A stretch of DNA of 64,000 bases from Centroscyllium fabricii (Eukaryota), in the NCBI GenBank assembly GCA_051313645.2, contig JBNRSN020000001.1, positions 428,048,001 to 428,112,000 of the forward strand, written 5' to 3'. The number at the start of each line of letters is the position of its first letter. The first letter of the stretch is position 1. The notes below the pieces were generated by a model that did no database searches, was not told the DNA's origin, and worked only from the letters and a program-made list of their open reading frames with translations. Positions 2,045-49,945 of the stretch are shown here, piece by piece. A program made the position numbers and the translations under genes.

Positions 2045-4048
2045 ATATCCCACCCTATCCCCGTTAGTGTTCTCTGCAACCGAGAGCGGGAGTCCCGAAG
2101 GCTGTGTTGCCTGCCTGGTGCAAGGCTTAAGGACATCTCTTTTGGGCTGGCGAGAAACTTGCAGTGGGAGGGGGAGGATCCAGTTGTCCTGGTACATGTT
2201 GGTACCAACGACATAGATAAGACAAGGAAGAAGGTTCTGTTACAGGGGTATGAGCAGCTAGGGGTCAAACTAAAAAACAGAACCTCAAGGGTAATAATCT
2301 CCGGGTTATTACCTGAGCCACGAGTGAATTTGGCTAGGTTAAATAAAATTAGGGAGTTAAATGCGTGGCTCAAAGATTGGTGTGGGAGAAGTGGGTTTTG
2401 CTTCTTGGGACACTGGCACCAGTACTGGGACAGGAGAGAACTGTTCCGGCAGGACGGGCTTCACCTGAACTGGGCTGGGACCAGTGTCCTGGCGAATCAT
2501 ATAACTAGGGTTGTAGAGAGGGCTTTAAACTAATTAGTGGGGGGGAGGTTTCTAGAGAGCAAATAAATAAAATGACACTGGAGAAGGTAATGGACATAGG
2601 GAACAATGGGGGAATTAAAAGACAGAGAGTGTCAGGAAGGGAAAGAATGTATGGAGATAAAGGTAAAGTTGTAAAAAGGGAAAAAGCAGGAATTAAGTGT
2701 CAAAAAACATATTTCAAAGACCTTTATTTGAATGCACGTAGTATTCGTAACAAAATAGACGAGTTGGCGGCACAAATAATTACATATGGGTATGATCTTG
2801 TGGCAATTACAGAAACATGGTTACAGGGCGACCAGGACTAGGAATTAAACATACACGGGTATTTAACAATTAGGAGGGACAGGCAGGAAGGAAAGGGAGG
2901 TGGGGTGGCTATGTTAATAAGACAAGAAATCACGACAATGCAGCGAAATGATATTGGCTCAAAGGATCAGGATAGTGAAACAGTTTGGGTGGAAATAAGA
3001 AATAATAAAGGGAAAAAAAACACTGGTGGGCGTAGTCTATAGGCCTCCAAACAGTTGTAACTTAGTTGGTCGGTGTATAAAACAGGAAATAGTTGGGGCT
3101 TGTAATAAGGGAACAGCTATAATTATGGGGGATTTTAATTTTCATATTGACTGGACTAATCAAGTTGGACAGGGCAGCCTTCAGGAAGAGTTCATTGAGT
3201 GTATTAGGGATGGGTTCCTTGAACAGTACGTAACTGAGCTGACCAGGGGGCAAGCAGTCTTAGATCTGGTCCTGTGTAATGAGACAGGATTAATAAAAAA
3301 ATGTCCCAGTAAAGGATCCCCTTGGAATGAGTGACCATAACATGGTCGAATTCCAAATTCAATTAGAGGGTGAAAGGGTTGGATCTCAAACAAGCGTACT
3401 GAGCTTAAATAAAGGAGACTATGATGGTATGAGAGCAGAATTGATTAAGGTGGACTGGGGAAACAGATTAAAGGGTAAGACGGTACATGATCAGTGGTAT
3501 GTATTCAAGGAGTTATTTTACAACTTTCAAGAAAAATATATTCCACTGCGGAAAAAAGGGTGTAAAAGAAAAAACAGCTATCCGTGGCTAAGTAAAGTAA
3601 TAAAGGAGAGTATCCGACTAAAAACAAGTTTATATAAGGCAGCTAAATCTACTGGGAAGATAGAAGATCGGGAAGCTTTTAAAAGTCAGCAAAAAATAAC
3701 AAAAAGATTGATTAAGAAAGAGAAGATAGATTATGAAAGTAAATTAGCAAAAAATATAAAAACAGATAGTGTAGCGCCGGCAGGGCCTAGGAACCACACG
3801 TGAGCCAGAGCTAGAGAAAACACAGCTTTAATCAACTGAACAAAACAAGAAAGAGAGTGAACCACTCGCAACAATCGTATTTAAACAGTTGGTGACGTCA
3901 TCGCGTCGGCCGACGTGGTGACGTCGTCGCTTCACCCGGATGAGCGGGGCTTTGCTCCGCGGAGTTCCCGTGGCGGATTCGATGTCCCAGTGGGCGTGCC
4001 GCCCCACAGCTCCCCCCAGAATCCGTCCGGGAGGAATAGTGACAGTGT

Positions 4049-6826
4049 CTATGTGTGCCGTTGGGGTGGCCGGATGATGCGGCCGGACCGTGTTGTCTGT
4101 TGCTCCTGGTTCTGCGGTGGAGTGTGGGCGGGTTTTGTTGCGGGAGGGCGACCGCGTTGTGGTGGTTGTGCGGGGACCGTAGCCTCACCCGCTATAACGT
4201 GTACCGGCTTGAGCCGGTCTATTGTCACAGTGTCAGTCCTGTTGCCCATTTGTAATTCAAAAGTTTTAGCTCCCGCCCGAAGCACTCTGTAGGGGCCATC
4301 GTACGGTGGCTGTAGTGGAGATCGGTGTCCGTCGCGCCGGACGAACACAAATTTAGCTTTTTTAATGTCGTCCGGCACCCGAGCTGCCGGCTCTCCGTGC
4401 CGGGCCACTGGTAGTGGCTGGAAAGCTCGTGCCGGGTTGGCGAAGTCTTTTAAATACTGGTCGGCTGACCAGGGAGCGTTGGGCTCAGCCAGGAACTCGC
4501 CCGGCACCGTTAAAGTTTGGCCGTAGACGAGCTCTGCTGCCGAGGCGTTTAGGTCTTCCTTGACTGCCGAGCGCAGCCCGAGGAGAACCCATGGAAGGCG
4601 GTCGGTCCACGATGCGTCCTTTAGTGTAGCTCGTAGTGATGCCTTCATTGAGCGGTGGAACCGTTCGCATAGGCCGTTCGCCTGTGGGTGGTATGCAGTG
4701 GTTCGATTTAGTGTCACCCCGAGCTCGCGGGCAATGGCAGCCCATAATGCCGACGTAAACTGGGGTCCTCTGTCGGAGCTGATGTCTGTGGGCACGCCGA
4801 AGCGGGCGACCCAGGTGGCGATGAACGCCCTGGCCAAGTCCGTGGTGCCGGTGGCAGTGAGGGGGACTGCTTCTGGCCAGCGAGTGTTGCGGTCGACCAT
4901 AGTCATTAGGTGCGTGTGGCCCTGGGATGGCGGTAGTGGCCCGACGAGATCGATATGGACGTGGTCAAAGCGTCTGGCCGGCACTTTAAAAGTTTCCAGT
5001 GGTGCCCTGATGTGCTTATGCACTTTGGAGCGCTGGCAGGCTATGCAGGAGCTGGCCCAGGCGCGGACGTCCTTGCGCAGGCCACGCCATACGAATCAGG
5101 CCGAGATTAATTTGATGGACGCGCGGGCGCCGGGGTGGGACAGGTCATGGAGGGTCCTAAATATGTGTCGCCTCCAAGCGTGGGGTACGACTGGCCTGGG
5201 TTGCGGCAAGGATACGTCGCAGCAGACGACGGTGGCAGCGGGTCCGTGCGCGATATTGGCCAAGTGGAGGCCAGGGAGATTAGCTGCTGCATTGAGCAGG
5301 TCGGGGTCGGCCAACTGGTCGGCGGCCAGCTGGGTGTAATCGACCGCCATTTGGGCGGCGTTAATGGTGGGGCGTGAGAGGCAGTCAGCGACCACGTTGT
5401 CGCGGCCGGAAATGTGCTGGATGTCGGTTGTAAATTCTGACATGGCCGCGAGTTGGCGCTGCTGCCTGGCCGACCAGGGTTCGGCGACCTTAGCCATCGC
5501 AAACGTGAGTGGCTTATGGTCGCTGAAGGCTGTGAAGTGGCGGCCCTCCAAGAGGAAACGAAAGTGTCTCACTGCCAGATGGAGAGCGAGTAACTCCCTA
5601 TCGAAGGCGCTGTATTTAACCTCTGGGTGCCGGAGTTGCCGGCTGAAAAAGGCCAGGGGCTGCCACGAGTTGCCGGTCCACTGCTCAAATACGGCCCCGA
5701 CCGCATGGTCGGAGGCGTCGGTGGTGAGGGCTACTCTGGCGTTGGGCCTAGGGTGGGCTAGGAGGGTGGTGTTTGCTAGGGCGGTTTTAGTTGCTGTGAA
5801 GGCGGTGGCGGCGTCGGCCGTCCACTCGACCGCAGCCTTGTTGGACTGCCCGCGGGTGGCCTGGTATAAGGGGGCCATGAGAGCGGCTGCTCCCGGGATA
5901 AAGCGGTTATAAAAATTAACCATGCCTAAAAATTCCTGCAGCCCTTTAATGGAGTGCGGGCGGGGGAATTCCTGTACCGCCTGCACCTTGGAGGGCAGGG
6001 GTATGGCCCCTGTTTGGGAAATGCGGTGGCCGAGGAAGTCAATGGTCTCAAGGCCGAATTTGCACTTGGTGGGGCTTAAGATAAGGCCGTGTTCGGTAAG
6101 GCGCTGGAACAGGGTCCTGAGGTGCAGGAGGTGTTCCTGGAGGGAGGTGCTGGCCACGAGGATGTCGTCTAAATAGACGAAAATGAACTTCAAGTCCCGT
6201 AGGACTGAGTCCATGAGGCGCTGGAAGGCCTGGGCCGCGTTTTTAAGGCCGAAGGGCATCCTAAGGAACTCGAAGAGCCCGAAGGGGGTAATAACGGCCG
6301 TTTTGGGAATGTCCGCCGGGTGTACCAGCACCTGGTGGTAGCCACGCACCAGGTCGATCTTGGAAAAGATCGTACAGCCCGCTAATCTGGCGGAAAAATC
6401 CTGGATGTGGGGTACGGGGTACCTATCCGGGGTGGTGGCGTTGTTTAGGCGGCAGTAGTCGCCGTAGGGGCGCCAACCTCCGTCGGGCTTGAGGGCTATG
6501 TGGAGCGGAGAGGACCAGGGGCTGCTGGAGCGGCGGATTATACCGAGTTGCTCCATGGTGCGGTACTCGGTGCGCGCGATCTCCTGCTTGGCCGGGTCGA
6601 GCCTATGGGCGTGGGCATGGACGGGAGGGCCTGTGGTCATTATAAAATGCTCCACCCCGTGTTTGGCCTGGCGGGCGGTGAACGTGGGGTTGATTAGGGC
6701 AGGGAACTCTGCCAGGAGTGTGCCGTAGGCATCGGAGTCCCGGGAGCGGCATTGGGCTGCCGCGTGGGCCAGGAGTGTGGGCCTTGTGGAGCATGGGATG
6801 GTCGTCATATTATTTATGTTGACCAA
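4049..6826 (-). pseudogene. pol (RT-RNase H-integrase) of CsRN1-like element, stop at 5096
   Basis: ORFs 5096-6826 and 4049-5023; [26 protein letters not shown] motifs. Confidence 0.92.
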
Positions 6827-6916
6827 GCGGCGCCGGCTTACGTCGACTAGTAGGCCGTAGGCGCAGAGGAAATCTGCCCCGATGAGGGGCGATGTGACCT
6901 GGGCCGTTACAAAATC

Positions 6917-7876
6917 TCAGGTGTACGCGTGGCTTGCAAGGGTAATTGTAAGCTTGCGGGTGCCGTATGTTTTTATATTGGAGCCGTTGGCCGCCGCTAG
7001 TGGCGGGCCCCGGGTGCCTTGTTTGGTTTCTGCAGGGGAGTCTGGCACGATGCTGTGCTGCGCGCCTGTGTTGCAGAGGAACCTGAGGCCTGTGCCGCTG
7101 TCTGTGGCAAAGAGCAGTGCTCCTGTGTGGCCTACAGACATGGTGGGGGCTGAGTTGGGCCGTGGCTTGAACGCGCATGGCTGGACGCAGCGGTGCACTT
7201 TGTGATCGAACCGCGTGTAGTAGTAGCACCAGCCGGTGTTAGAGGGACGCGGTTGCCTAGGTGGGCGCGGGGCCCTAGGTTCAGGCGTAAAGTTATGCCT
7301 TGGGGGTGATTGGCTGCGCTCTACCGATGCGGAGTTAGGGTCGCACGTGGTTGAGCGGGTGCGCTGCGCCTCCATGAGCCTGTCGGCTTCCTCTCTGAGC
7401 TCATCATCGCTCCGTTGGCCAAGGGCCGCCAAGGCCGGTCTGATGGCGCGGGGCAGCTTAAGGAGGAAGACGGTGTGGAAGAGGGAGGCCGGGTTGGGTG
7501 TGAGCGCTTGCATCTGACCTAAGAGGTCCGATGGGTCTGCGTCCCCGAGTTTGGGGAGGTCGAGGAGCTGGCAGTCGCGCTCAAATTGGGAGGGGGTAAA
7601 AAAAATTATGAGCGCGGCCTTAAGTTATTCATACCTGCCTGCGATGGGCACACGCTGTATTTTTGACCACATCCGATCAATCGTCGTCTGTGGTAGGGCT
7701 GAGAACACCAGGTCGTAGCGGTCGTCCCCCTGGATGCCGTGTGTGCGGCAGCTGGTCTCGATGCACATAAACCAGGCCGCTGGCCGTTGCTCCCAGAACT
7801 CGGGTAGAGTTAGTCCACGTCCGGCGTTCTGGCCAAGTCCTTGCGTTCGTGGAGCTTGGTTCCTTGGGTTTACCAT
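6917..7876 (-). pseudogene. gag-protease of CsRN1-like element, disrupted
   Basis: ORFs 7625-7876 and 6917-7513; protease motif decayed to FLCNTGAQHS. Confidence 0.85.
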
Positions 7877-7954
7877 GTTTTCTTATTTAAAAAGTTCTTT
7901 GGCTGGTGGTCCCAGATCCTGCGGCAGCTTTTCTTCTCTGGAAGTCGTTCCAGT

Positions 7955-7966
7955 TCGGGGTCACCA
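7955..7966 (-). promoter_or_regulatory. tRNA-Trp primer-binding site
   Basis: TGGTGACCCCGA 1 nt after 5' LTR, complementary to the vertebrate tRNA-Trp 3' end TCGGGGTCACCA. Confidence 0.88.
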
Positions 7967-9392
7967 CTGTAGCGCCGGCAGGGCCTAGGAACCACACGTG
8001 AGCCAGAGCTAGAGAAAACACAGCTTTAATCAACTGAACAAAACAAGAAAGAGAGTGAACCACTCGCAACAATCGTATTTAAACAGTCCCGCGGTTGGTG
8101 ACATCATCGCGTCGGCCGACGTGGTGACGTCGTCGCGTCACCCGGATGAGCGGGGCTTTGCTCCGCGGAGTTCCCGTGGCGGATTCGATGTCCCAGTGGG
8201 CGTGCCGCCACAATAGCAAGAGATTCTATAGTTACATAAAAAGAAAAAGGGTGGCTAAAGTAAATGTTGGTCCCTTAGAGGATGAGACCGGGAAATTAAT
8301 GGTGGGAAATCTGGAGATGGCAAAAACACAATGAATATTTTGTATCAGTCTTTACAGTAGAGGACACTCAAAATATCCCAACATTGGATAAACAGGTGGC
8401 TCTAGGGGGGAGGAGCTAATTACGATTAAAGTCACTAAGGAAGTGGTACTCGGTAAAATAATGGGACTTAAGGAGGATAAATCCCCTGGACCTGACGGCT
8501 TATATCCTAGGGTCTTGAGGGAAGTGGCGGTAGGGATTGTGGATGCATTGGTAATAATTTTTCAAAACTCTCTGGACTCGGCAAAGGTCCCGGCAGATTG
8601 GAAAACTGCTAATGTAACGCCTTTATTTAAAAAGGGTCATAGACGGAAGGCTGGAAATTATAGACCAGTTAGCCTAACATCTGTGGTTGGCAAACTGCTA
8701 GAATCCATTATTAAGGAAACAGTAACAGGGCATTTGGATAAACATAATTTAATAGGACAAAGTCAGCATGGTTTTACAAAGGGGAAGTCATGTTTGACAA
8801 ATTTGCTGGAGTTCTTTGAGGACATAACATACAGGGTGGATAAAGGGGAACCAATGGATGTAGTGTATTTAGACTTCCAAAAGGCATTTGACAAGGTGCC
8901 ACACAAAAGATTATTGCTCAGGATAAAAAATCAAGGGATTGGGGGTAATATTCTGGCATTGGTGGAGGACTGGCTTTCTAACAGAAAGCAGAGAGTTGGG
9001 ATAAATGGTTCATTCTCAGACTGGCAGTCAGTGACTAGTGGTGTTCCGCAAGGGTCGGTGCTGGGACCCCAACTCTTTACAATCTATATTAATGATTTGG
9101 AGGAAGGGACCAAGTGCAACATATCAAAGTTTGCGGATGACACAAAGATGGGAGGGAGTGTGATGAGTGAGGAGGACATTAAAAACCTGCAAAAGGACAT
9201 AGATAGGCTAAGTGAGTGGGCAGAGATTTGGCCGATGGAATATAATACTGGAAAGTGTGAAGTTATGCACTTTGGCAGGAAAAATAATAGAGCGAGTTAG
9301 AACATAGAACATAGAACATCCAGCACTGTACAGGCCCTTGGGCCCTCAATGTAGTGCCGCGCTTAGTCCGTCTCTGATTTTTTCTGTCCCCC

Positions 9393-12227
9393 CTACTCTT
9401 CCTTCCCCTCCATGTACCTATCTATCATCCTTTTAAAAGCACCCAGACTGTCCACATCCACTATTTCAGATGGTGGCCTACTCCATTCCCCGACCACTCT
9501 CTGCGTAAAGAACTTGCCCCTGCCATCCCTTCTGAATCTTCCTCCTTGAATCTTGTGCTCGTGCCCTCTTGTTGTCGTTCTTCCCACCCGGGGAAACAGT
9601 CTCTGCACGTTTACTCTATCGATCCCCTTCATCATTTTAAACATCTCTATTAAGTCCCCCCTCTTCCTTCTCCGTTCCAGGGAGAAGAGTCCCAGCTACC
9701 TCAACCTCTCCTCGTACGACTTTCCCCCCATTCCCGGCAGCATCCTGGTGAATCTCCTCTGCACCCTCTCCAGCGCCTCCACATCCCGCCTGTAGTACGG
9801 TGCCCAGAACTGCACACAGTACTCCAAGTGTGGTCTCACCAGTGACCTGTACAGCTGTAGCATGACCTCCCGGTTCTTAAACTCTATTCCCCTGTTGATG
9901 AAGGCCAATACACCATAGGCCTTTTTTACTGCCTTGTCCACCTGGGTGGCAGCCTTCAATGATCTGTGTACATATACTCCCAGATCCCTTTGCTCCTCTG
10001 CTTCACTCAGGACCCTGCCGTTGACCCTATATTCCCTCTTCCTATTTGCCCTACCGAAGTGCATCACCTCGCATTTCCCCGTGTTGAACTCCATTTGCCA
10101 TTCTTCAGCCCAGCTCTGCATCCTATCTATATCCCTCTGAATCTTTCTACTTCCTTCCTCCTCATCCACTACTCCCCCAATCTTTGTGTCATCCGCAAAT
10201 TTGCTGACCCATCCCTCAGTCCCCTCCTCCAAGTCATTGATAAAGATTACAAATAGTAGTGGCCCCAACTCCGACCCCTGTGGTACCCCACTGGTGACCG
10301 GTCTCCAACCCGAGTATTGGCCCTCTACCTCTACCCTCTGCTTCCTCTGAGCCAGCCAGTTCTCAATCCATCCCACCACTTTGTTGTTTACCCCGCAACT
10401 CCTTACTTTCTTCATGAGTCGACCGTGCGGGACCTTGTCGAACGCCTTGCTGAAGTCCATATATATGACATCAACCGCCTTTCCCTCGTCCACACACTTG
10501 GTCACCTTAACGAATCCGTGCTGACTGCTCCTGATTAATTTGCCCCTTTCTAGATGGTCGTAGATCCTGTCCCTCAGGACCCTTTCCATCACCTTTCCGA
10601 CCACCGAGGTAAGGCTGACTGGTCTGTAGTTCCCTGGCACGTCCCTGCTCCCCTTTTTAAATATGGGAACCACATTCGCCTCTCTCCAGTCGTCAGGGAC
10701 TATCCCCGAGGATAGCGAGGAACTAAAGATAGAGGTCAGTGGCTCTGCGATTTCGTTCCTCGCTTCCCAGAGAATCCTTGGATATATCCCGTCCGGCCCA
10801 GGAGATTTGTCTACCTTCAGTTTCTCCAAAATATCTAATACCTCCCCCCTCTGAATATTTACTTCCCCCATCCTTTCCCCTTGTATCTTGAACTCCTCCT
10901 CTACTTTTAGTTCCCTCTCCCTTGTGAACACGGACGCAAAATATTCATTTAGTGCTTCCCCAATTTCCTCTGACTCCGTGCACATTTCTCCCTTGCCGTC
11001 TTTGATCAGCCCTACTCTTATCCTAGTCATCCTTTTATTTCTTACGTAAGCATAGAAAGCCTTAGGGTTCTCCTTTATCCTTCCCGCTAATGCCTTCTCA
11101 TGCCCTCCCTTTGCCTTCCTTAGCCCATTCTTCAGTTTTTTCCTTGCTTCTTTGTACTCCTTTCCCGCCCCTGCTGTACACTGCTTTCTCAATCTATCAT
11201 ATGCCTCCTTCTTCTTCTTTACTAATTGTTCTACCTCTTTCGTGATCCACGGTTCTCTCCTCTTTCCCTTGTTTCCCATCCTACTCGGGACATGCTTATC
11301 CAGGGCTTTCATAATTTGCTCCCTGAACACTCTCCATTTTTCTTCCGTTCCTCTCCCAGCAAGTTCCCGTTCCCAATTGGTGTTAGCTAAATCGTGCCTA
11401 ACCCTGTCGTAATTTCCCATCCCCCAGCTGTATACCTTACCCTGCCTCATGCTCCTATCCTTCTCCATTACTATTGTGAACGTCACCGAGTTGTGGTCAC
11501 TGTCCCCAAAGTGCTCCCTTACCCCCAGTTCTACCACTTGGCCTGGTTCATTTCCCAGAACCAGGTCCAACGTTGCCCCCCCCCTTGTTGGTTCCTCCAC
11601 GTATTGTGTCAGGAAACCTTCCTGCACGCATTGTAAGAAAATCTCTCCATCTGCACTCTTTGACCTTCCTAGATTCCAGTCTATATTAGGGAAATTGAAA
11701 TCTCCCATGATAACTACCCTATGTCCCCCACATCTTTCCTTTATTTGTCGCGCAATTTCCTCCTCCAGCTCCCTGTTACTATTTGGTGGTCTATAAAAGA
11801 CTCCCACTAACGTTACCGCCCCTTTCCTATTTCTAAGCTCCGCCCATACTACCTCCGTTCGTGTGTCCCCCTGAAAGTGTTTTTCTGTAGCTGTCACGCT
11901 GTCCTTGACCAGCAGTGCTACTCCCCCCCCGCGCTTTCCTCCCTCCCTGCTCCTCGAGAAGCTTCTGTATCCCTGAACCCCAAGCATCCAGTCCTGTCCC
12001 TGCTCCAGCCATGTCTCTGTAATGGCCACCACATCGAAGTCCCATGTCGCCATCCATGCCCCTAGCTCTCCTGCCTTGTTCCGTATACTTCTTGCATTGA
12101 AGTAGGCGCATTTCAGTCCCCTGTCACTTCCCTGCGTCCTTGGTTCTCCCCCCTGTTCCTCCTTGTTCCCTGGTCTCCCCTCTGTTTCCCTGCCCGTTTC
12201 CCCATCCCCCTGGCCAATTAGTTTAAA
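9393..12227 (-). pseudogene. CR1 ORF2 (APE endonuclease plus RT), one stop at 9696 and a short in-frame RT deletion
   Basis: 785-aa ORF plus 9393-9644 continuation; QHGFVK joins directly to VTKCVDEG, lacking the G-SCLTNL-EFFE block seen in other copies. Confidence 0.92.
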
Positions 12228-13206
12228 TCCCCCTTTATGGCCGAAGCGAGTTTCCCACCCAGAATGTTGATGCCCCTTCGGTTCAGGTGCAAGCCGTCCC
12301 GGTCATACAGATCCCACCTTCCCCAGAACGATCCCCAATTGTCCACAAAACTTATGCCCTCCCTTCTGCACCAATCCTGTAGCCACGCGTTTATTCGCAT
12401 TCTTTTTTTGTTTTTCCACTCCCTATCCCGTGGCGCTGGTAGGATCCCAGAAATCGTGGCATTATTCGTTTTGTCTCTCAGTTTCCTTCCTAGTTCCTTA
12501 AATTCCTGCTTGATGTCTTCTTCCTTTTTCCTCCCTATGTCGTTCGTACCTATGTGTACCACGACCTGCATTTGTTTGCTCTCCCCTTTTAGAGTGCTGT
12601 AAACACAGTCCGAGATGTCTTGGACCCTGGCACCTGGGAAGCAACAGACCATCCTCGAGTCCCTTCTGCTCCCGCAATACCTCCTATCCATCCCTCTCAC
12701 CATTGAGTCGCCAATAACTATTGCTCTCAGCCTTCCCCCCCCTCCTTTCTGTACCGCCTCTTCTGGCCTGGTATCAGAGTTCTCGACCCCTCGGTCTCCC
12801 CCTGTTAGTTCTTCCCCCTCTTCATCATTCAGGGGTGACTACCTGTTGCCGAGGGGAATGTCCCCTGAGGGCCTCGACCTATCCTTCCCCTTCCTTTTCG
12901 CCAACTCCCAACAGCCCTTCTGCACGGGTGTATGTACAGTCCCCCCTGGTTGCTTTGTGCCTTCCTCCGCCTCCTTAAGGATTTAAAGTTCCTCCAGGTT
13001 CCTTTCCATTTCCCCATCATGGACCTGGACCTCCTCTGCCTCCCTCAGGACCCTGAGTTCCTCCAGGTTCCGTTCCAGCTCCTTTACTCTGGCTTTAAGG
13101 AGCTGTAGCTGGATGCACTTTTCACAGATGAATCCAGCCTGGCTCCCCTTTCCCCCCCCTGCTGAAACATGTTGCAGGAAGAGCATTTTCCCGTTTGCTT
13201 TGCCAT
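12218..13206 (-). pseudogene. CR1 ORF1 (zinc finger/leucine zipper plus SGNH esterase), frameshifted
   Basis: MAKQTGKCSSC...FICEKCIQLQLLKARVKELERNLEEL; CCFPGARVQD, HIGTNDI, DGLHLN. Confidence 0.88.
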
Positions 13207-13962
13207 CCCTTCACAAATTCCCAGGAAATAATGTACAAAAAAAAAAGTCTGACCTTAGTTTGTCTCGAGTTCTTCAGTTCACTCCTAAATGTTAGAGGAG
13301 GAGGATGGGTGGGGGTCACTACTACGTAGTGACTCGGGTTTAGCCGCTGCTCCCCCTATATACAGATACCAATATAAAGGCCCCTCCCCTTCCTGTTACA
13401 CTCCCTACTTAAAGATCACCAGTCCAGAGTTCCTCCTTCCTCTGCTTTCCCACAGGTCCGACTCCTCGGCCCCGCTCTCTTCTGGCTTTTCAAAAAAGCC
13501 CGCGAAGCTGCTGCCTCTGCCGCTGCTCCTCCTGTGCGCCGCTGCTCCTCCTGTGCCCAGCTCCCTTCTGTTGGCCTCGCTGCCTCCTATTATTATCTAA
13601 ATGGAAAGAAACTGGAAAGTACTTCAGTGCAAAGGGATCTGGGGGTCCTGGTGCAAGAAACATAAAAAGTTAATATGCAGGTGCAGCAGGTGGTCAGGAA
13701 GGCCAACGGAATGTTGGCTTTTATTGCTACGGGGATGGAGTATAAAAGCAGGGAGGTCTTGCTGCATTTGTACAGGGTATTGGTGAGACCACACCTGGAG
13801 TACTGCGTGCAGTTCTGGTATCCATATTTAAGAAAGGACATACTTGCTCTCGAGGCATTGCGAAGAAGGTTCACTGGGTTAATTCCGGGGATGAGGGGGC
13901 TGACATATGATGAGAGGCTGAGTAGATTGGGCCTCTACTCATTGGAGTTCAGAAGAATGAGA

Positions 13963-14357
13963 GGCGGCTCGGTGGCATAGTGGTTAGCACTGTTGCCTCA
14001 CAGCTCTGGAGACCCGGGTTCAAATCCAGCCTCGGGTGCTATCAGTGTGGAGTTTGCACATTCTCCCCGTGTCTGCGTGGGTTTCCTCCGGGTGCTCCGG
14101 TTTCCTCCCAAAGATGTGTGGGTTAGGTTGATTGGCCATGATAAATTGACCTTTAGTGTTAGGGGGATTGAATATGTGGGGTTACGGGGATAGGGTGGGA
14201 TATGTGTCGGTGTAGGCTCGATAGGGATCGAGGGATATGGGGAGAGGGCAGGGGCAGGCTGCTGGGTTTGGATGATCAGCCATGATCTCATTGAATGGCG
14301 GAGCAGGCTCGAAGGACCGAATGGCCTACTCCTGCTCCTATCTTCTATGTTTCTATG
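13963..14357 (+). mobile_element. HE1-like V-SINE (tRNA head, V domain, CR1-derived tail)
   Basis: A box TGGCATAGTGG, B box GGTTCAAATCC, V core GTGTGGAGTTTGCACATTCTCCCCGTGTCTGCGTGGG, (CTATGTTT) tail; interrupts CR1 RRMRG|DLIE. Confidence 0.9.
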
Positions 14358-16265: not shown

Positions 16266-19200
16266 TGTGGTAACCCATATTTGGGTATCCCTTATATGGG
16301 ATACCATTGTTGTATACCTGTGTGCTGATATGTTGCTGGAGCCAGGTCAGCCACACCTCTGACTCCTCCCTCCAGGTGGAGCACCATAAAGGTGTGGGCT
16401 GATCGTCCATTCATTCTTTTCCTGTATGAATGTACCGAGGAGACACCTCTATTCTTTATTAATTAAAAGCCTAGTATTAACGGTAACTACGAGTCGTCTT
16501 TTAATTAAGTCTTCGACCTCGCTACAATTTTAATTAATAATTTTACAATGGAGACCAAAGCAGTAAACCCTCGGATACTGGACATCAGCCCCCACGATGC
16601 TGCAGCACAGGTCAACTTCAGGCTCTGGCTCAAAGTTCTGGAGAACTACATGGAAGAAGCCAAGGCTGAAACAAGTGCGCAAAAACTTAAAGTACTGCTG
16701 GCACATATCTCCGGCAGGGTTTTCTCCCTCATCGAAGAACACACATCGTACGAAGAATCGGTGGAGACCCTCAAGGAGCACTATGTGCGCCCTACTCACA
16801 AAGTCCACGGCCGCCACCTACTAGCGACCCGACCTCAACAAACCGGTGAGTCAGACCTTGATTTTGCGCAAGCACTCCGAAGCATGATAAAAGCCTGTGG
16901 CTGTACGGGCGGACTGAATCTGAGACAGGAGGAAAACCTCCTCCTCCGGGACGCGTTCGTTACAGGGCTAAAAAACCCAGTCGCCCGTCAGAAACTACTG
17001 GAACAGGACAGCCTGACCTTTGAACAGGCAGTCAATCTAGCACAAATGGTGGACGGGGCCCACGCCAAAAACCAGACGTACGGCGGGGCCGGCTATCATG
17101 CTCCAAGCATTTGGGCTGCGACCCAGCAAGAGCCACGGATTGAGACCCCCACTATGGCTGCGTCAGCCACCACGGACTCTAAGTATAAACACTGCTATTT
17201 TTGCGGAAAAGGCTTGCACCCCAGGGCAAAGTGCCCAGCCAAGACAGAGACCTGCGGCCTCTCCACCCTGAGAATCGATCCCCCCTCGCTGTTCGCCAAC
17301 CTCGATCCCAAGTGCAAACCTATCGCCACTAAGAGTCGGCGGTATAGCGAGGGGGACCGCACGTTTATCAGGTCGGAGGTAGGGCGGCTGCTAAAGGAGG
17401 GGATTATTGAGGCCAGCACCAGCCCCTGGCGGGCCCAAGTTGTAGTCGTTAAGACTGGTGAGAAACACCGGATGGTTATCGATTACAGCCAGACCATTAA
17501 CCGCTACACCGGGCTCGACGCCTACCCCCTTCCCCGCATCTCAGAAATGGTCAATCAGATCGCCCAGTACAAGGTGTTCTCCACGATCGACCTTAAATCG
17601 GCGTATCACCAGCTCCCGATTCGGAAAGCCGACCGCCCCTACACCGCCTTCGAGGCGAACGGCCGGCTCTACCACTTCCTCCGGGTCCCCTTTGGCGTCA
17701 CCAACGGAGTGTCAGTGTTCCAGCGGGAGATGGACCGCATGGTTGATCACAATGACTTGCAGGCCACCTTCCCTTACCTGGACAATGTGACCATCTGCGG
17801 CCACGGCCAGCAGGACCACGATGCCAACCTGGCCAAATTTCTTGACACGGCGGCTAAGCTGGACCTTACGTATAACAAAGACAAATGCGTCTTTAATACA
17901 ACCCGGCTCGCCATCCTCGGATACGTGGTGGAGAACGGGGTCCTCGGCCCCGACCCACAGCGTATACGACCCCTTCAGGAACTGCCCCTACCTCACAACC
18001 CCAAAGCCTTGAAGAGAGCTCTAGGATTGTTCTCCTACTATGCACAATGGGTCCCGCAGTTCGCAGACAAGGCTAGACCACTCCTCAAGGCTGCCGTCTT
18101 CCCTCTTTCTATAGAAGCTCAAACGGCATTCGAAAAGATAAAAGGAGATATCATCAAAGCGACCATGCACGCTGTTGATGAATCCATCCCTTTCCAGGTG
18201 GAGAGTGACGCTTCGGACTTTGCCCTTGCTGCCACTCTGAATCAGGCAGGCAGGCCCGTAGCGTTTTTCTCCCGCACCTTACAGGGACCCGAAACTCGCC
18301 ACTCAGCAGTGGAAAAGGAGGCCCAGGCCATTGTGGAGGCCGTGCGCTACTGGCGTCATTACCTGGCCGGTAAGCGTTTTACCCTGCTCACCGACCAACG
18401 GTCGGTGGCGTTTATGTTTAACAATAAACTACGGGGTAAAATCAAGAATGACAAGATCATGCGGTGGCGGATCGAACTCTCGACTTACGAGTATGACATT
18501 CTTTACCGACCAGGTAAACTCAATGAACCACCGGACGCACTGTCCAGGGGAACGTGCGCCAGTGCCCAGCTAGACCGGCTGAAGGACCTCCACGACCGCC
18601 TCTGCCACCCGGGTGTCACCAGACTCGCCCATTTTGTCAAAGCTAATAATCTCCCCTACTCCATCACGGAGATCAAGGCTATGACCCGAGATTGCCCTGT
18701 CTGCGCTGAGTGCAAACCCCACTTTTTCCGGCCAGACACGGCGCATCTCATTAAGGCCACTCGCCCCTTCGAACGCCTCAGCGTAGACTTCAAAGGCCCC
18801 CTTCCCTCCACCGACCGCAACTCATACTTCCTCACGGTAGTGGACGAGTTCTCCCGTTTCCCCTTCGCATTCCCCTGCCCAGACATGACGAGCGCAACGG
18901 TGATCAAACACTTCACCACGCTGTTCGCCATCTTTGGTTTCCCCAGCTATATCCATAGCGACCGGGGGTCATCGTTCATGAGCGATGAACTGCGTCAGTT
19001 CCTGCTCCAGAAAGGGGTTGCCACGAGCAGAACGACCAGTTACAACCCCCGGGGGAACGGCCAGGTAGAAAGGGAGAATGGGATTATCTGGAAGGCGGTC
19101 ACCCTGGCCCTCAAGTCCAGAGGCCTTCCAGTGTCCCACTGGCAGGCAGTCCTCCCAGGCGCATTGCACTCTATTAGGTCGTTATTATGTACAGCTACTA

Positions 19201-19970
19201 ATGCCACCCCGCACGACCTTGTTTTCTCTTTCAGCAGGAGATCATCTTCGGGGACGGCACTCCCACCATGGCTGACGACCCCCGGGCCGGTGTTTCTTAA
19301 AAGGCACGTTCGGGGCCACAAGACGGACCCCCTGGTGGACCAGGTACAGCTCCTACACGCCAACCCACAATATGCTTTTGTGCAGTTCCCAGACGGGCGT
19401 GAGGACACCGTGTCCATCAGGGACCTGGCTCCGGCCGGCAACACCGCCACGGCTCCCCCTATTGGCCAGCAAGTCGACCTGCCATCGACCGGGGAACGTA
19501 CAGCACCGACGGAGGCAGACTATTCGGCCATGGGGCCATCACAACCAACATCGGAACCCCGGCGGTCGGCAAGACAGACGCGGCCGCCGGAGAGACTCAT
19601 TGTGAACTGTTCACTGTCTTCAACCCCCCCCCCCCCCCCCTGGACTCAAAGTTTTCAACAAGGCATTCACCCCGCCCCCCCGGACTCAAAGTTTTTAACA
19701 AGGGGTGAATGTGGTAACCCATATTTGGGTATCCCTTATATGGGATACCATTGTTGTATACCTGTGTGCTGATATGTTGCTGGAGCCAGGTCAGCCACAC
19801 CTCTGACTCCTCCCTCCAGGTGGAGCACCATAAAGGTGTGGGCTGATCGTCCATTCATTCTTTTCCTGTATGAATGTACCGAGGAGACACCTCTATTCTT
19901 TATTAATTAAAAGCCTAGTATTAACGGTAACTACGAGTCGTCTTTTAATTAAGTCTTCGACCTCGCTACA
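16266..19970 (+). mobile_element. Gypsy B, identical LTRs, protease-deleted
   Basis: 261-bp LTRs 16266-16526 and 19710-19970, no difference seen by eye; 5-bp TSD GTTAT; PPT AAGGGGTGAA. Confidence 0.96.
16548..19772 (+). CDS. Gag-RT-RNase H-integrase fusion lacking protease (1074 aa)
   Basis: One knuckle then TCGLSTL; IDLKSAY, PFGVTNG, YLDN, ESDASD, HxxxCH...CPVC, DFKGP/SDRG/ERENG; ORF runs into the 3' LTR. Confidence 0.88.
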   Translation: METKAVNPRILDISPHDAAAQVNFRLWLKVLENYMEEAKAETSAQKLKVLLAHISGRVFSLIEEHTSYEESVETLKEHYVRPTHKVHGRHLLATRPQQTGESDLDFAQALRSMIKACGCTGGLNLRQEENLLLRDAFVTGLKNPVARQKLLEQDSLTFEQAVNLAQMVDGAHAKNQTYGGAGYHAPSIWAATQQEPRIETPTMAASATTDSKYKHCYFCGKGLHPRAKCPAKTETCGLSTLRIDPPSLFANLDPKCKPIATKSRRYSEGDRTFIRSEVGRLLKEGIIEASTSPWRAQVVVVKTGEKHRMVIDYSQTINRYTGLDAYPLPRISEMVNQIAQYKVFSTIDLKSAYHQLPIRKADRPYTAFEANGRLYHFLRVPFGVTNGVSVFQREMDRMVDHNDLQATFPYLDNVTICGHGQQDHDANLAKFLDTAAKLDLTYNKDKCVFNTTRLAILGYVVENGVLGPDPQRIRPLQELPLPHNPKALKRALGLFSYYAQWVPQFADKARPLLKAAVFPLSIEAQTAFEKIKGDIIKATMHAVDESIPFQVESDASDFALAATLNQAGRPVAFFSRTLQGPETRHSAVEKEAQAIVEAVRYWRHYLAGKRFTLLTDQRSVAFMFNNKLRGKIKNDKIMRWRIELSTYEYDILYRPGKLNEPPDALSRGTCASAQLDRLKDLHDRLCHPGVTRLAHFVKANNLPYSITEIKAMTRDCPVCAECKPHFFRPDTAHLIKATRPFERLSVDFKGPLPSTDRNSYFLTVVDEFSRFPFAFPCPDMTSATVIKHFTTLFAIFGFPSYIHSDRGSSFMSDELRQFLLQKGVATSRTTSYNPRGNGQVERENGIIWKAVTLALKSRGLPVSHWQAVLPGALHSIRSLLCTATNATPHDLVFSFSRRSSSGTALPPWLTTPGPVFLKRHVRGHKTDPLVDQVQLLHANPQYAFVQFPDGREDTVSIRDLAPAGNTATAPPIGQQVDLPSTGERTAPTEADYSAMGPSQPTSEPRRSARQTRPPERLIVNCSLSSTPPPPPWTQSFQQGIHPAPPDSKFLTRGECGNPYLGIPYMGYHCCIPVC

Positions 19971-26507: not shown

Positions 26508-29500
26508 TGTGATAAACCCTTTTATCATATGTATATAGTTAACTGACATGTATCGTTATGTATCAATGTAATACCTATACTGTAATGTGATTCCTGGGAC
26601 ATGCCCAGGTTAGCTCCGCCCACGACTCCTCCCTCCCTGGAGGAGGTATATAAGTGGCTACCACCCATCCCCCAGCCATACCTGGGGACAGTCGACTAGC
26701 TGGTGCATGTTCCAGTTAGTAGTCAATAAAAGCCTAATTGTTTCTTCATCTAACTACTCACCTTCGAGGTCGTTATTTCAGGTCACAATTTTATTGACTA
26801 CTTTTGAAAATGGATACTATGCTCAAGCCAGCAACGTTTGAATTGGACCCCCGAACACCAGGAGCATCGAACACTTTTACACACTGGCACAGTGTCTTCG
26901 ATGCATACCTAAGAGCGAACGCAGCGGTCGTGGTGACCGAAGAGGACAAACGACGGCTCCTCAACGCCCGGGTGGGCCCTCAGGTGTACTCCATGATCGT
27001 GGACGCCTCATCTTACCTGGATGCCATCAGGATTCTCAAAGCTGAGTACAATCGGGCACCTAATATCGTCCACGCTAGGCATATCCTTGCCACCAGAAAA
27101 CAACAACCTGGTGAGTCAAGCGTGGAGTTCCTAAGAGCTCTCAGAATACTGTCGCGGGCCTGCGACTGCAGAGCGCTAACGGCCCCGGTCCATGCAGACA
27201 GTCTCATTAGAGATGCATATGTAACAGGCCTCAGGTCGGACTATGTGAGACAGAGACTGCTAGAGCAGAACGGCCTTGACCTGCAGGCAACCGCGGACCT
27301 GGGGAATGCGCTGGATGTGGCCTCACTAAATCTGTCATCTTATTCGAGTAACTACACGGGCCCAGCCCCGCCATCTTGGACAATGCCGGCGCAATGACCG
27401 GCAGAAGAATTAATTGCAGCTGCCCACGCGAAGACGGCAGCCAAATGTTACTTTTGTGGGCAGTCTCAGCACCCGAGACGTAACTGCCCTGCTAGAGAAG
27501 CGGCCTGTTCGAAATGTGGGAAGAAAGGACACTATGCAAAGGTCTGTAAAGCAACCACAAAATCGAAACCGGGCAGCGCCGCGTGTGGAACATGGGAGCA
27601 GCCACATTGGGCTCACCCATCCCCCACTCAGCACCCCTCGTGGCAGCAGTCGCCATATTGGACTCAGCCTCCCCCTCCACAGTACACCGCATGGCGGCAG
27701 CCATCTTGGGGACCAGCCCCGGAGGACTACTCTTCGGATCAAGACGAATCGGCTGACCCAGTATTGGCATCGGTGACCATCGACCAGGACAAGACTCAGT
27801 CACTGGAAAAATCTTCGGATCAAGACGAATCGGCTGATCCAGTATTGGCATCGGTGACCCTCGATCAAGACAAGACTCAGCCACTGGAAAAATCTATGAT
27901 GCCGGTGGAAGTTAATGGTCAAGAGGTGGAGTGCCTGTTCGACAGTGGGAGCACAGTAAGTTTTATTAATCCTAATACTGTAAAGCGTCTCTCCCTTAAA
28001 GTAATACCTGCGCGCCAGAGAATATCCATGGCTTCCAAGTCAGAATCTGCAGACGTCTCCGGGCGCTGTGCAGTAGCACTCAATGTCCAGGGCGCGCTGT
28101 TTAATAATTTTAGCTTTTACGTGCTGCCACAGCTCTGCGCCCCCTTACTCCTGGGACTGGATTTCCAGTGCCATCTCCAGAGCGTTACTATGGCGTTCGG
28201 TGGGCCCCTTCCTTCGCTTACGGTTAGAAACCGCAGCCCAGCGCGGCACCCCCAACGCACTACCTGTGGCCTCTCGACCCTTAAGGTCGCCCCTCCATCC
28301 CTCTTTGCCAACCTCACCCCAGACTGCAAGCCCGTCGCCACCAAGAGTAGGCGCTACAGTGCTGGGGACATGGATTTTATAAAGTCCGAGGTGCAGCGCC
28401 TCCTAAAAGAAGGGGTCATCGAGGCCAGTAATAGCCCCTGGAGGGCGCAGGTAGTGGTAGTCAAAACCGGAGAGAAGAACCGGATGGTTGTGGACTACAG
28501 CCAGACTATAAACCGGTTCACCCAACTAGATGCCTACCCCCTCCCCCGGATAGCGGACATGGTGAACCAGATCGCGCAGTTTAAAGTGTTTTCCACCATA
28601 GACCTTAAATCTGCCTATCACCGGCTTCCCATCCGCTCAGAGGACCGTCTCTATACAGCCTTCGAGGCTGACGGTCGCCTCTACCAATTTCTTAGGGTCC
28701 CGTTTGGCGTCACGAATGGGGTCTCGGTCTTCCAAAGGGAGATGGACCGAATGGTCGATCGGCACGGGCTGCGAGCCACTTTCCCTTACCTCGATAATGT
28801 GACCATTTGCGGCCATGATCAGCAGGACCATGACGCCAACCTCCAAAAATTTCTCCACACCGCCAAAACGCTGAACTTAACCTATAACACAGAAAAATGT
28901 GTGTTTAGTACCACCCGCCTGGCCATCCTCGGCAGCGTTGTGGAGAATGGGGTCATCGGTCCCGACCCGGACCGCATGCGCCCCCTCATGGAGCTCCCCC
29001 TCCCCCACTCCCCCAAGGCCCTTAAACGGTGCTTGGGATTTTTCGCTTACTATGCCCAGTGGGTCCCCAACTATGCGGACAAAGCTCGCCCACTACTCAA
29101 ATTGACCTCTTTTCCCCTGTCTGCAGAAGCCAACTCGGCGTTCTGTGGAATTAAAAACGATATTGCTAAAGCCACGATGCACGCTGTGGATGAGTCCGTC
29201 CCGTTCCAAGTGGAGAGCGATGCATCGGACTTTGCCCTGGCCGCCACCCTTAACCAGGCGGGCAGACCCGTGGCCTTCTTCTCGCGTACCCGCCAGGGCC
29301 CCGAGACCCGTCACTCCTCAGTCGAGAAGGAGGCCCAGGCCATCGTTGAAGCAGTGCGGCACTGGAAGCACTACCTGGCCGGCAAGCGTTTTACCCTGTT
29401 GACTGACCAACGATCAGTCGCGTTCAAGTTCAACAACAAGGAACGGAGTAAAATCAAGAACGACAAGATATTAAGGTGGAGAATTGAACTCTCTGCGTTC

Positions 29501-31257
29501 AATTATGATATCTTGTACCGGCCCGGGAAATTTAACGAACCCCCAGACGCCCTATCCCGCGGTACCTGTGCCAGCTCACAGGCTGACCGTCTCCAAACCC
29601 TTCACAATGACCTCTGCCACCCGGGGGTCACCAGGTTGGTTCACTTCGTGAAGTCCCGCAACCTCCCCTACTCTATCGAAGAGGTCAAGACCCTGACCAG
29701 CAATTGCCAGGTCTGCGCGGAGTGCAAGCCGCACTTCTACCGGCCAGACCGGGCGCACTTGATCAAGGCCACTCGCCCCTTTGAACGACTCAGCGTCGAT
29801 TTCAAAGGACCCCTTCCCTCCTCCAACAGGAATGTGTACTTCCTCAACATAATTGATGAGTACTCCCGCTTCCCCTTCGCCATTCCTTGCCCGGACATGA
29901 CCTCCGCCACTGTTATCAAAGCCCTCAATAGTATCTTCTCCCTGTTCGGCTATCCCAACTATATCCATAGTGACTGGGGGGCCTCTTTTATGAGTGATGA
30001 GCTGTGTCAGTTTCTGCTAGCGAAAGCCATCGCGACTAGCAGGACTACCAGCTACAACCCCCGGGGGAACGGACAGGTCGAGAGGGAGAACACCACTGTC
30101 TGGAAGGCCATCCAGTTAGCCCTACGGTCTAAAGGCCTCCCAGTCACCCGCTGGCAGGACGTCCTCCCTGAAGCGCTCCACTCTATCCGGTCCCTCCTGT
30201 GTACTGCCACTAATGCCACCCCTCACGAACGACTTTTTGCCTTCCCCAGGAAGTCAGCTTCCGGGACCTCGCTACCATCGTGGCTACTATCCCCGGGACC
30301 GGTCCTGCTACGGAAGCACGTGAGGGGACACAAGGCAGATCCCCTGGTCGAACGGGTCCACCTCCTGCACGCCAATCCCCAGTACGCCTACGTGGCATAC
30401 CCCGATGGGAGGGAGGACACCGTGTCCATAAAGGACCTGGCACCAGCGGGAGTCCCCAAACACAGCCCCGCTCAGCAGCCCAAGCACCCAAGAAGCCCCG
30501 CTCAGCAGCCCGCGCCCCCAAAACGTCCTGTTACGCTCCCCCAGCCACCGACGCCAAGGTACGCTCCCCGGCATGTGGACCCAGTACCCCAGTATGCCCG
30601 CACGACACCTGCGAGCAGCACGGCGTGGCAGCCAGCTTGGATCCACAGCGCGCGCCCCCTAGAGTCAGAGGACAAAGGAGAGAGCGCGCCCCCTGCTGTC
30701 AGAATAAGGGCACCACCACCCAGAAGTAATAATTTAACGACCACCGCTCGTCAACCGGCACCAGCACCACCACAGCAACCGACCCGGCCAGCCACCCCGC
30801 GACCACGGACACCACCAGCGGTGCAACGATCGACGAGGATCACCAAACCGCCGGAACGACTTAACCTTTAATTAAAGAACTTTTCCTTTTCACCCCGCCG
30901 TACTTTTGTGGATTAAAGAATTATTTTTCTCTCTTTCCTTTCACCCCGCCGGACTTTCGTTTTAAAGAAGGGGTGAATGTGATAAACCCTTTTATCATAT
31001 GTATATAGTTAACTGACATGTATCGTTATGTATCAATGTAATACCTATACTGTAATGTGATTCCTGGGACATGCCCAGGTTAGCTCCGCCCACGACTCCT
31101 CCCTCTCTGGAGGAGGTATATAAGTGGCTACCACCCATCCCCCAGCCATACCTGGGGACAGTCGACTAGCTGGTGCATGTTCCAGTTAGTAGTCAATAAA
31201 AGCCTAATTGTTTCTTCATCTAACTACTCGCCTTCGAGGTCGTTATTTCAGGTCACA
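26508..31257 (+). mobile_element. Gypsy C, complete
   Basis: 280-bp LTRs 26508-26787 and 30978-31257 (2 differences seen); 5-bp TSD GGGAG; PPT AAGAAGGGGTGAA. Confidence 0.96.
26804..30871 (+). pseudogene. Single-frame gag-pol of Gypsy C with one TGA at 27395-27397
   Basis: ORFs 26804-27397 and 27764-30871 share a frame; knuckles CYFCGQSQHPRRNC follow the stop in frame; protease LFDSGS; RT YLDN; RNase H; integrase. Confidence 0.9.
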
Positions 31258-49584: not shown

Positions 49585-49945
49585 TTATATCCAGGGATAT
49601 TTAATACCCAATCCTGCCCTTTTTTGAGCCAGGTCTCCGTTATCGCCACAACATCATATTCCCATGTGACTATTTGCACCTGCAGCTCACCAACCTTATT
49701 TACCACGCTTCGTGCATTTACATACGTGCACTGTAAACCTGTCTTAGACCTTCTTGTATTCTCTATTGGTCTGACCCCACCTATTACTTTACTATTTCTT
49801 ACTCTACTACCATCTGTTTTTTCCCATCCTTTGTGCACTTTGTTTCTCCTTTCTCCTTTCTAATGCACATCCTCCTTTCAAATTAGGTTAAGCCCTTCCC
49901 AACAGCACTAGCAACCCTGCACCCCCCACCCCTTGTGAAGACTAT

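What the first reader, a model, noticed from the sequence alone, without database searches (positions are those of the whole stretch)
2524..12227. In-phase U_UUA_AAC slippery site joins CR1 ORF1 to ORF2 in two diverged LINEs
Seen: the outer CR1 ends ORF1 with GCT TTA AAC TAA (heptamer 2524-2530) and the -1 frame is open into the endonuclease frame. The nested CR1 ends GAT TTA AAC TAA (12227-12221 minus); its -1 frame is open for 58 codons through LKCAYFNARSIRNK to the first Met at 12053, which lies after the first conserved APE motif, so AUG initiation would truncate the enzyme. G runs follow both sites. Known: U_UUA_AAC is the coronavirus -1 frameshift heptamer, whereas the LINE ORF2s studied (L1, SART1) use reinitiation. 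Inference: these CR1s make an ORF1-ORF2 fusion by programmed -1 frameshifting. Caveats: the outer copy has an in-frame ATG at 2572, and the old copy near 49880 is degenerate (CTTAACC).
Basis: partly seen in the sequence, partly recalled or inferred. Interest (0 to 1): 0.72.

Follow-up and report, generated by a model that had tools for sequence, protein, structure and literature searches.

The report
Probable ribosomal frameshift in CR1 LINEs
The two genes of the CR1 jumping elements, abundant in sharks, reptiles and birds, are joined by a conserved virus-style 'slippery' sequence, suggesting that these LINEs make their copying enzyme as a Gag-Pol-like fusion by ribosomal frameshifting, which has not yet been shown by experiment.

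Summary
Observation confirmed. Both intact CR1 junctions end ORF1 with in-phase U_UUA_AAC plus stop, and the -1 frame runs into the endonuclease; a decayed third copy keeps the -1 phase. Of 123 long ORFs in the window only these two end in an in-phase XXXYYYZ. The signal is family-wide: 18 published vertebrate CR1-type consensus junctions (sharks to bowfin, coelacanth, frog, crocodilians, lizard) carry TTTAAAC before any of three stops; none of the synonymous Leu/Asn variants searched was seen at an ORF1 end. [quoted passage not shown] No conserved stem-loop or pseudoknot was found; a G-run about 11 nt downstream is the candidate stimulator (G-quadruplex-like in only one copy). Against: no experiment, some shark families have a UAAUG stop-start, one frog family reads G_UUA_AAC, and phase could not be read from most gapped consensus strings. 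Best reading: programmed -1 frameshifting gives an ORF1-ORF2 fusion (0.77).

The parts
2075..2533 (+). Outer CR1 ORF1, C-terminal SGNH esterase part (5' part missing), ends ...ERALN-stop
   Evidence: Pfam PF13472 E 2.8e-9; tblastn 40% to nested ORF1
2524..2530 (+). In-phase slippery heptamer U_UUA_AAC of the outer CR1, followed directly by UAA (2531-2533)
   Evidence: sequence, frames
2539..2545 (+). G7 run 9-15 nt 3' of the heptamer; candidate stimulator
   Evidence: G4Hunter 1.4, no four-tract pattern
2524..3769 (+). Outer CR1 ORF2, -1 frame: linker and APE endonuclease; decayed (stops, one frame break near 3010); cut at 3770 by an LTR element
8206..9299 (+). Outer CR1 ORF2 continued (RT), cut by the nested CR1
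   Evidence: tblastn, junction sequence
13591..13920 (+). Outer CR1 ORF2 continued after the nested element
   Evidence: tblastn 58% to nested ORF2 residues 733-842
9300..13575 (-). Nested, near full-length CR1 (approximate ends)
12218..13206 (-). Nested CR1 ORF1 (zinc finger, coiled coil, esterase); one frame break and two stops in this copy; ends ...KGDLN-stop
   Evidence: profile hit to ZfL2-1 ORF1 esterase 4C1B E 1.6e-42
12221..12227 (-). In-phase slippery heptamer U_UUA_AAC of the nested CR1, followed directly by UAA (12220-12218)
12188..12210 (-). Four G tracts starting 11 nt 3' of the heptamer; candidate stimulator
   Evidence: G4Hunter 2.08, reached by 0.2% of windows in the element
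9696..12227 (-). Nested CR1 ORF2 in the -1 frame (linker, APE, RT), open for 843 codons from the heptamer; motif-I Asn at 12098-12096, first ATG at 12053
49883..49892 (-). Decayed junction of a third CR1 (CTTAACC TAA); -1 phase to the endonuclease kept

Best explanation
Esterase-type CR1 LINEs express ORF2 mainly by programmed -1 ribosomal frameshifting on the last two codons of ORF1. Most ribosomes read ...Leu-Asn and stop, giving ORF1p. A minority slip back one base on U_UUA_AAC, read on through a 40-70 residue charged, low-complexity linker and make an ORF1p-linker-endonuclease-RT fusion, the LINE counterpart of Gag-Pol. The pause is most likely supplied by the stop codon directly after the heptamer plus a G-rich element about 11 nt downstream, bound by a protein or folded as a G-quadruplex, not by a classical pseudoknot. 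Shown: heptamer, phase in the window, conservation, class-preserving swaps. Inferred: slippage, the fusion product, the stimulator.
For: (1) Window: 3 of 3 junctions in -1 phase; 2 of 123 long ORFs end in an in-phase XXXYYYZ, both CR1 ORF1. (2) DNA from other vertebrates (PMC13343379 Suppl. Table 2, first 400 nt of each cell, read by eye): 17 of 33 TTAAACTA places are ORF1 ends; the unqueried base before is T in 17 of 17, against 6 of 16 at the other places; an 18th junction has TGA; stops TAG 11, TAA 6, TGA 1. 16 synonymous-variant 9-mers gave 57 places, 53 shown, 0 at an ORF1 end. A heptamer-independent search on the upstream DGLH codons gave 4 rows, 4 with the heptamer. (3) Proteins: terminal tripeptide slippery-compatible in 99 of 163 homologues vs 3.6% background. 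In 92 dereplicated ingroup sequences LN (38) is never preceded by E/K/Q/M/W, which cannot end in U (0 of 38; 28 of 76 one and two residues further up); GN (17) is preceded by Q 11 times and never by a residue that cannot end in G; KN (8) fits A_AAA_AAC; at least 6 changes of state on the tree. [quoted passage not shown] (4) Naturally shifted copies show the -1 frame as FKL: P0079 (Hypanus) runs esterase-GGFKL-linker-endonuclease in one frame while its relative P0194 ends GGLN; also P0048, P0058, P0206, P0105 (Limosa). (5) The nested and old copies have no in-frame ATG before the motif-I Asn; an Asn-to-Ala change at a conserved EN Asn cuts Zorro3 activity below 5% (PMC1965478). (6) The L2-type outgroup lacks the signal (terminal 0 of 13) and the ZfL2-1 esterase folds without a terminal LN.
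Against: No translation data. No stable 3' structure: MFE z 0.1-0.9 for both intact copies, no stem of 5 bp or more starting 4-12 nt after the nested heptamer, no long-range partner better than shuffles, no Rfam hit. G-quadruplex pattern in one of two copies only; a G4 or longer run is absent in 4 of 18 consensus rows. UAAUG stop-start overlap in 3 of 18 rows, and 99 of 120 ORF2 homologues have a called start before motif I (scattered 1-262 residues upstream). A Ranitomeya family reads VKL, i.e. G_UUA_AAC (G_UU(A) is used by equine arteritis virus). Of 9 consensus rows showing the whole linker only 2 read through in -1 frame by eye, no better than chance; the strings have visible deletions inside conserved coding motifs. 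Distant GN/KN/FL clades are protein-only evidence from unnamed records whose element type was not established. Fisher p values (7.7e-8, 1.6e-6) ignore relatedness; the 16-30 residue window was chosen after seeing the data.
Confidence: 0.77

Rival explanations
1. Termination-reinitiation: ribosomes stop at the ORF1 stop and restart at an overlapping or nearby AUG or near-cognate codon (UAAUG, UAAUU, CUA), as in SART1 or L1; TTTAAAC is part of the reinitiation context.
For: UAAUG in 3 of 18 consensus rows, 3 of 6 with UAA; UAAUU in all three window copies; Met two codons after the stop position in P0069 and P0073; SART1 uses UAAUG (PMC3894237); L1 initiation is AUG-independent; UGGGA within 40-128 nt upstream of the stops.
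Against: 11 UAG rows and 1 UGA row have no overlapping AUG yet keep the heptamer; UGGGA sits at non-homologous places in the copies; reinitiation does not predict LN/GN/KN/GF swaps with a co-varying preceding base.
Confidence: 0.11
2. Mixed use: frameshifting is ancestral but some families also, or instead, reinitiate at a linker AUG, so free ORF2p and the fusion coexist.
For: In-frame ATGs at 2572, 2590, 2647 in the outer copy; UAAUG families; starts before motif I in 99 of 120 ORF2 homologues.
Against: AUG positions are not conserved and are as frequent as chance in a 40-100 codon linker (inference); heptamer is kept even in UAAUG families.
Confidence: 0.06
3. The motif is kept for another reason: protein constraint on the ORF1 C-terminus (helix cap Leu/Gly/Lys-Asn), or a DNA/RNA signal such as a TATA-like box, branch point or packaging signal.
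For: Terminal Asn is conserved in 54 of 92 ingroup proteins; Gly-Asn and Lys-Asn are plausible helix caps (own knowledge); TTTAAA is TATA-like (own knowledge).
Against: Protein constraint cannot fix synonymous positions (TTA, AAC, preceding T in 18 of 18 rows); a TATA-like or branch-point signal would not be replaced by GGGAAAC-type codings nor tied to codon phase; the ZfL2-1 esterase lacks the ending.
Confidence: 0.06

Closest known systems
Viral -1 programmed frameshifting at U_UUA_AAC (coronavirus IBV 1a/1b) and retroviral/LTR gag-pol
   Same: X_XXY_YYZ heptamer in phase at the end of the upstream ORF; polymerase ORF in -1; structural protein in excess
   Different: Host is a non-LTR LINE; stop follows the heptamer directly; no pseudoknot or stem-loop found
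Arterivirus (PRRSV) nsp2 protein-stimulated frameshift
   Same: A short low-complexity motif 11 nt 3' of the shift site with no structure (CCCANCUCC, PMC5009743); the CR1 G5 run also starts at +11 in the nested copy and in several consensus rows
   Different: G-rich instead of C-rich; no binding protein known; resemblance of spacing only, untested
SART1 UAAUG stop-start and L1 ORF2 reinitiation
   Same: LINE bicistronic RNA; ORF2 in the -1 frame directly at the ORF1 stop (UAAUG has this phase)
   Different: Most CR1 junctions have no AUG overlap and keep a slippery heptamer instead
Other non-LTR frameshift reports: Drosophila HeT-A gag; Paramecium LINE groups 1-2
   Same: Frameshifting used or suggested in non-LTR elements
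   Different: HeT-A shift is within gag; Paramecium case is +1 and only suggested; neither is a conserved -1 ORF1-ORF2 heptamer
Vertebrate canonical CR1 with esterase ORF1 (type IV)
   Same: Domain layout: zf/coiled coil/SGNH esterase ORF1, APE-RT ORF2
   Different: Nothing in the elements is atypical; the new point is the junction signal

Membership tests
Canonical vertebrate CR1 LINE | Esterase-type ORF1 | tested here: met
   PF13472 hits; top homologues from sharks and rays; 4C1B
Canonical vertebrate CR1 LINE | ORF2 with APE and RT | tested here: met
   PF03372/PF14529; homologues carry PF00078 and come from rays, birds, turtle
Canonical vertebrate CR1 LINE | Placement in the CR1 clade by RT phylogeny | not tested
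   No RT tree built; assignment rests on homologue hits and near-identical junctions in rows labelled CR1
-1 programmed ribosomal frameshift element | X_XXY_YYZ heptamer in phase with the upstream ORF | tested here: met
-1 programmed ribosomal frameshift element | Downstream ORF open in the -1 frame from the heptamer | tested here: met
   3 of 3 window junctions in phase; consensus strings uninformative (2 of 9 read through)
-1 programmed ribosomal frameshift element | Nucleotide-level conservation beyond coding need | tested here: met
-1 programmed ribosomal frameshift element | 3' stem-loop or pseudoknot 5-9 nt downstream | tested here: not met
   only a weak 6 bp G-U rich stem in the outer copy
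-1 programmed ribosomal frameshift element | Alternative stimulator (G-quadruplex or protein-bound motif) | tested here: inconclusive
   G4Hunter 2.08 nested, 1.4 outer; G run of 4 or more within +4 to +14 in 14 of 18 consensus rows
-1 programmed ribosomal frameshift element | Measured trans-frame product | not testable with these tools
   needs reporter, ribosome profiling or mass spectrometry
Termination-reinitiation (SART1/TURBS type) | AUG overlapping or close to the stop | tested here: not met
   0 of 3 window copies; 3 of 18 consensus rows
Termination-reinitiation (SART1/TURBS type) | Conserved UGGGA motif 40-90 nt upstream | tested here: inconclusive
   present at different, non-homologous distances in the three copies

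The most novel reading that the evidence does not exclude
Probability: 0.35. Interest if true: 0.88.

Novelty: new variant of a known kind. Interest (0 to 1): 0.76.

Why it matters
How non-LTR retrotransposons translate ORF2 is stated as an open question (PMC3894237), and the 2016 recoding review lists no LINE ORF1-ORF2 frameshift in the passages seen. CR1 is the dominant repeat of birds (11.8% of the chicken genome) and of many other vertebrates. A frameshift would mean that CR1 ORF2 is mis-annotated at its start, that the enzyme is a Gag-Pol-like fusion, that copies with a broken ORF1 cannot supply ORF2, and that vertebrate genomes hold a very large natural set of -1 sites with an unusual stimulator. 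It gives a sharp, cheap test: a 60-100 nt cassette in a dual reporter.

Tried and rejected
Looking for CR1 DNA as contamination in bacterial genomes: 2 weak loci, neither spans a junction, not used; plasmids and phages no match. Search for longer fused proteins with alignment A2: 26 hits, mostly chimeric gene models; only the Ranitomeya models were informative. Classical pseudoknot or stem-loop: rejected. Long-range pairing of the G-rich stretch, including to the C-rich 5' UTR tract near 13325: no better than shuffled queries (best -31.5 vs mean -30.4; -24.0 vs -20.8, minimum -24.4). Rfam: nothing in the window. Supplements of PMC4316615 (file 1 not searched; the two TTAAACTA hits shown lie in the RT tail) and PMC4120745 (no sequences as text) gave no junctions. 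Cluster look-up for ten distant esterases gave no informative names. Synonymous variants not searched: CTTAACTGA, all non-TTA Leu codons with AAT, and 4 of 10 TTAAATTAA places were not shown.
Full report
Context. The window is repeat-rich animal DNA; the best named homologues of the nested ORF1 are from sharks and rays (Mustelus, Stegostoma, Pristis, Leucoraja). It holds three CR1 ORF1-ORF2 junctions: an outer + strand element broken by an LTR element (3770 to about 8211) and by a nested - strand CR1 (about 9300-13575), and an old copy near 49900. ORF1 is an SGNH esterase and ORF2 starts with an APE endonuclease.

Observation. Both intact junctions read N-N-T TTA AAC TAA, with the -1 frame FKL... 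open into motif I (YxNARS). The old copy reads CTT AAC CTA and, apart from two decay stops, reaches motif I in the same frame. Linkers differ in length (44, 59, 70 codons to the Asn) while phase is kept. As control, 2 of 123 stop-to-stop ORFs of 100 aa or more in the window end in an in-phase XXXYYYZ; they are these two ORF1s. The two ORF1s share 42% of third codon positions, 33 of 59 identical residues use the same codon, and 4 of 9 other shared Leu do.

DNA from other vertebrates. Supplementary Table 2 of PMC13343379 holds about 1,000 consensus rows, but each cell is cut at 400 characters, so only junctions that fall in the first 400 nt can be seen; the cut parts may bear on every count here. 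TTAAACTA occurs at 33 places; by eye 17 are ORF1 ends (halosaur, alligator 2, bowfin, bullfrog, elephant shark, crocodile 3, stingray, coelacanth, sawfish, catshark 2, dogfish 3). The base before the query is T in 17 of 17 against 6 of 16 at the other places. TTAAACTGA adds a bearded dragon junction (1 of 6 places). Stops vary (TAG 11, TAA 6, TGA 1); the heptamer does not. Sixteen 9-mers with synonymous Leu or Asn codons gave 57 places, 53 shown, none at an ORF1 end; some combinations were not searched. A search on the upstream DGLH codons, blind to the heptamer, gave 4 rows, all with it. A run of four or more G starts within 4-14 nt of the heptamer in 14 of 18 rows, at +11 in several. Against: of 9 rows that show the linker up to motif I only 2 (ScyCan_CR1-1a, SquAca_CR1-6c) read through in the -1 frame by eye; the strings are visibly gapped even inside conserved motifs, so they neither support nor refute phase. 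Three rows have an overlapping TAATG.

Protein-level test. A heptamer X XXY YYZ constrains the last three residues. Of 208 ORF1 sequences (and the two window proteins) 176 had the catalytic His aligned and 163 a tail of 15-40 residues; 99 of 163 end in a compatible tripeptide against 3.6% of internal tripeptides, and 5-14 of 163 at offsets 2-8 (37 at offset 1, mostly the GL of GLN). On a tree of 105 sequences (157 of 163 with enough core, thinned at 70% identity, C-terminus excluded) the vertebrate clade ends in LN (26 of 32), other clades in LN, GN, internal KN, or GF/FF/FL; within 16-30 residues of the His, a window chosen after inspection, compatible tripeptides occur in 27 of 32, 4 of 6 and 44 of 53 (expected 4.5, 1.0, 11.5), and in 4 of 13 of the outgroup (expected 1.9); one sequence fell outside the clades. 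The outgroup resembles the ZfL2-1 esterase ending, so I take it as L2-type (inference). The preceding residue follows the homopolymer rule: before LN 0 of 38 are E/K/Q/M/W and 16 can only end in a pyrimidine or are Ile; before GN 11 of 17 are Q and none is pyrimidine-only; KN 8 of 8 can end in A. In the unthinned set one ELN exception exists (1 of 80). At least 6 changes among LN/GN/KN are needed on the IQ-TREE tree. The p values there ignore relatedness. [quoted passage not shown] The distant records are unnamed and their element type was not established.

Frames seen in shifted copies. P0079 (Hypanus gene model) reads esterase-ARGGFKL-linker-endonuclease in one frame, P0194 of the same family ends ARGGLN; together they fix T TTA AAY TA and -1 phase. 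FKL also appears in P0048, P0058, P0206 and P0105 (Limosa), LKL in P0097, VKL in three Ranitomeya models (G_UUA_AAC). In a distant family the two frames RYLN-stop and KYDI-stop (P0276 cluster; P0322, P0368, P0374) fix T (T/C)TA A. These proteins are selected for reading through, so they show the sequence, not the frequency of the phase.

Start codons. In the nested copy Pfam's endonuclease model starts at residue 67 of P0003, the Asn is residue 69 and the first Met residue 84; loss of a conserved EN Asn cuts Zorro3 activity below 5% (PMC1965478; equivalence of the two Asn is inferred). But 99 of 120 ORF2 homologues have a called start before the Asn, scattered from 1 to 262 residues upstream, and 21 do not; and L1 ORF2 initiation is described as independent of its AUG. 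So the AUG argument is weaker than the conservation argument.

Stimulator. No stable fold 3' of either intact site (z 0.08-0.88), no long-range partner beyond shuffles, no Rfam hit. The nested copy has four G tracts from +11 (G4Hunter 2.08, top 0.2% of the element); the outer has one G7 run (1.4). The spacing equals that of the protein-bound CCCANCUCC motif 11 nt 3' of the PRRSV shift site; the same review says natural G-quadruplex stimulators were not then known. The G run also codes a G-x-G in the linker, so a protein cause is not excluded. A role for the adjacent stop codon is my inference.

Literature. Ten full-text searches found no paper describing a CR1 ORF1-ORF2 frameshift. Seen: PMC3894237 parts 1-2 of 3 of the text; passages only of PMC5009743 (first 300,000 of 449,034 characters held), PMC3542737, PMC4255032, PMC11835228, PMC13343379 (0 occurrences of 'frameshift', 'slippery', 'overlap'), PMC2734521, PMC4120745 (0 'frameshift'), PMC3905857 (0 'frameshift'), PMC5405496, PMC1965478; a reference-list line of PMC4837594 (Ilves 1992, rat LINE reinitiation); supplement searches of PMC13343379, PMC4316615, PMC4120745. 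Not seen: Haas 1997 and Kapitonov and Jurka 2003 (cited; the latter not held), Kajikawa 1997 (recalled) and Repbase notes; any of them may mention the site.

Verdict. The feature is real and family-wide. It works like a viral -1 frameshift site; it fails the classical 3' structure criterion and lacks a measured product, so it is a probable, not proven, member. Probability of -1 frameshifting as main route 0.77; interest 0.76; new variant of a known kind.

Noticed in passing
window 3770-8211: LTR retrotransposon (Gypsy-type by RT/integrase order) with two near-identical LTRs inserted in the outer CR1 ORF2; a related copy lies at about 44300-47200.
   Followed up: partly
window 16509-19772, 26798-30871, 59363-62327, 712-1746: A second Gypsy-type family in several copies; two have very long open gag-pol frames (1087 and 1157 aa).
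   Followed up: no
window 48850-49584 and about 49930-50690: Two related GC-rich inserts (74-86% alike in blocks) split the old CR1; one has 20 nt terminal inverted repeats (48850-48869 / 49565-49584), like a non-autonomous DNA transposon.
   Followed up: partly
window 13925-14050: tRNA-derived SINE-like head directly after the outer CR1 RT (label from recall, not tested).
   Followed up: no
window 13300-13330 (-): C-rich tract in the nested 5' UTR can pair with the +11 G motif, but no better than shuffled controls.
   Followed up: yes
P0011, P0048, P0067, P0144, P0171, P0176: CR1 proteins filed under bacterial or archaeal names (Pseudomonas, Proteus, Carnobacterium, MAGs): probable animal DNA contamination of those assemblies.
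   Followed up: no
P0079: A Hypanus gene model named hydroxyacid oxidase 2 isoform X1 is an in-frame CR1 ORF1-ORF2 read-through.
   Followed up: partly
PMC13343379 Suppl. Table 2, row AldAff_Crack-2: Labelled Crack but begins with an esterase-like ORF1 end and the same heptamer, without the G run; may be a misfiled CR1 or a wider use of the signal.
   Followed up: no
shark-type ORF1 ends EGLN/GGLN: GAG GGT TTA AAC gives two overlapping slippery heptamers, G_GGU_UUA and U_UUA_AAC.
   Followed up: no
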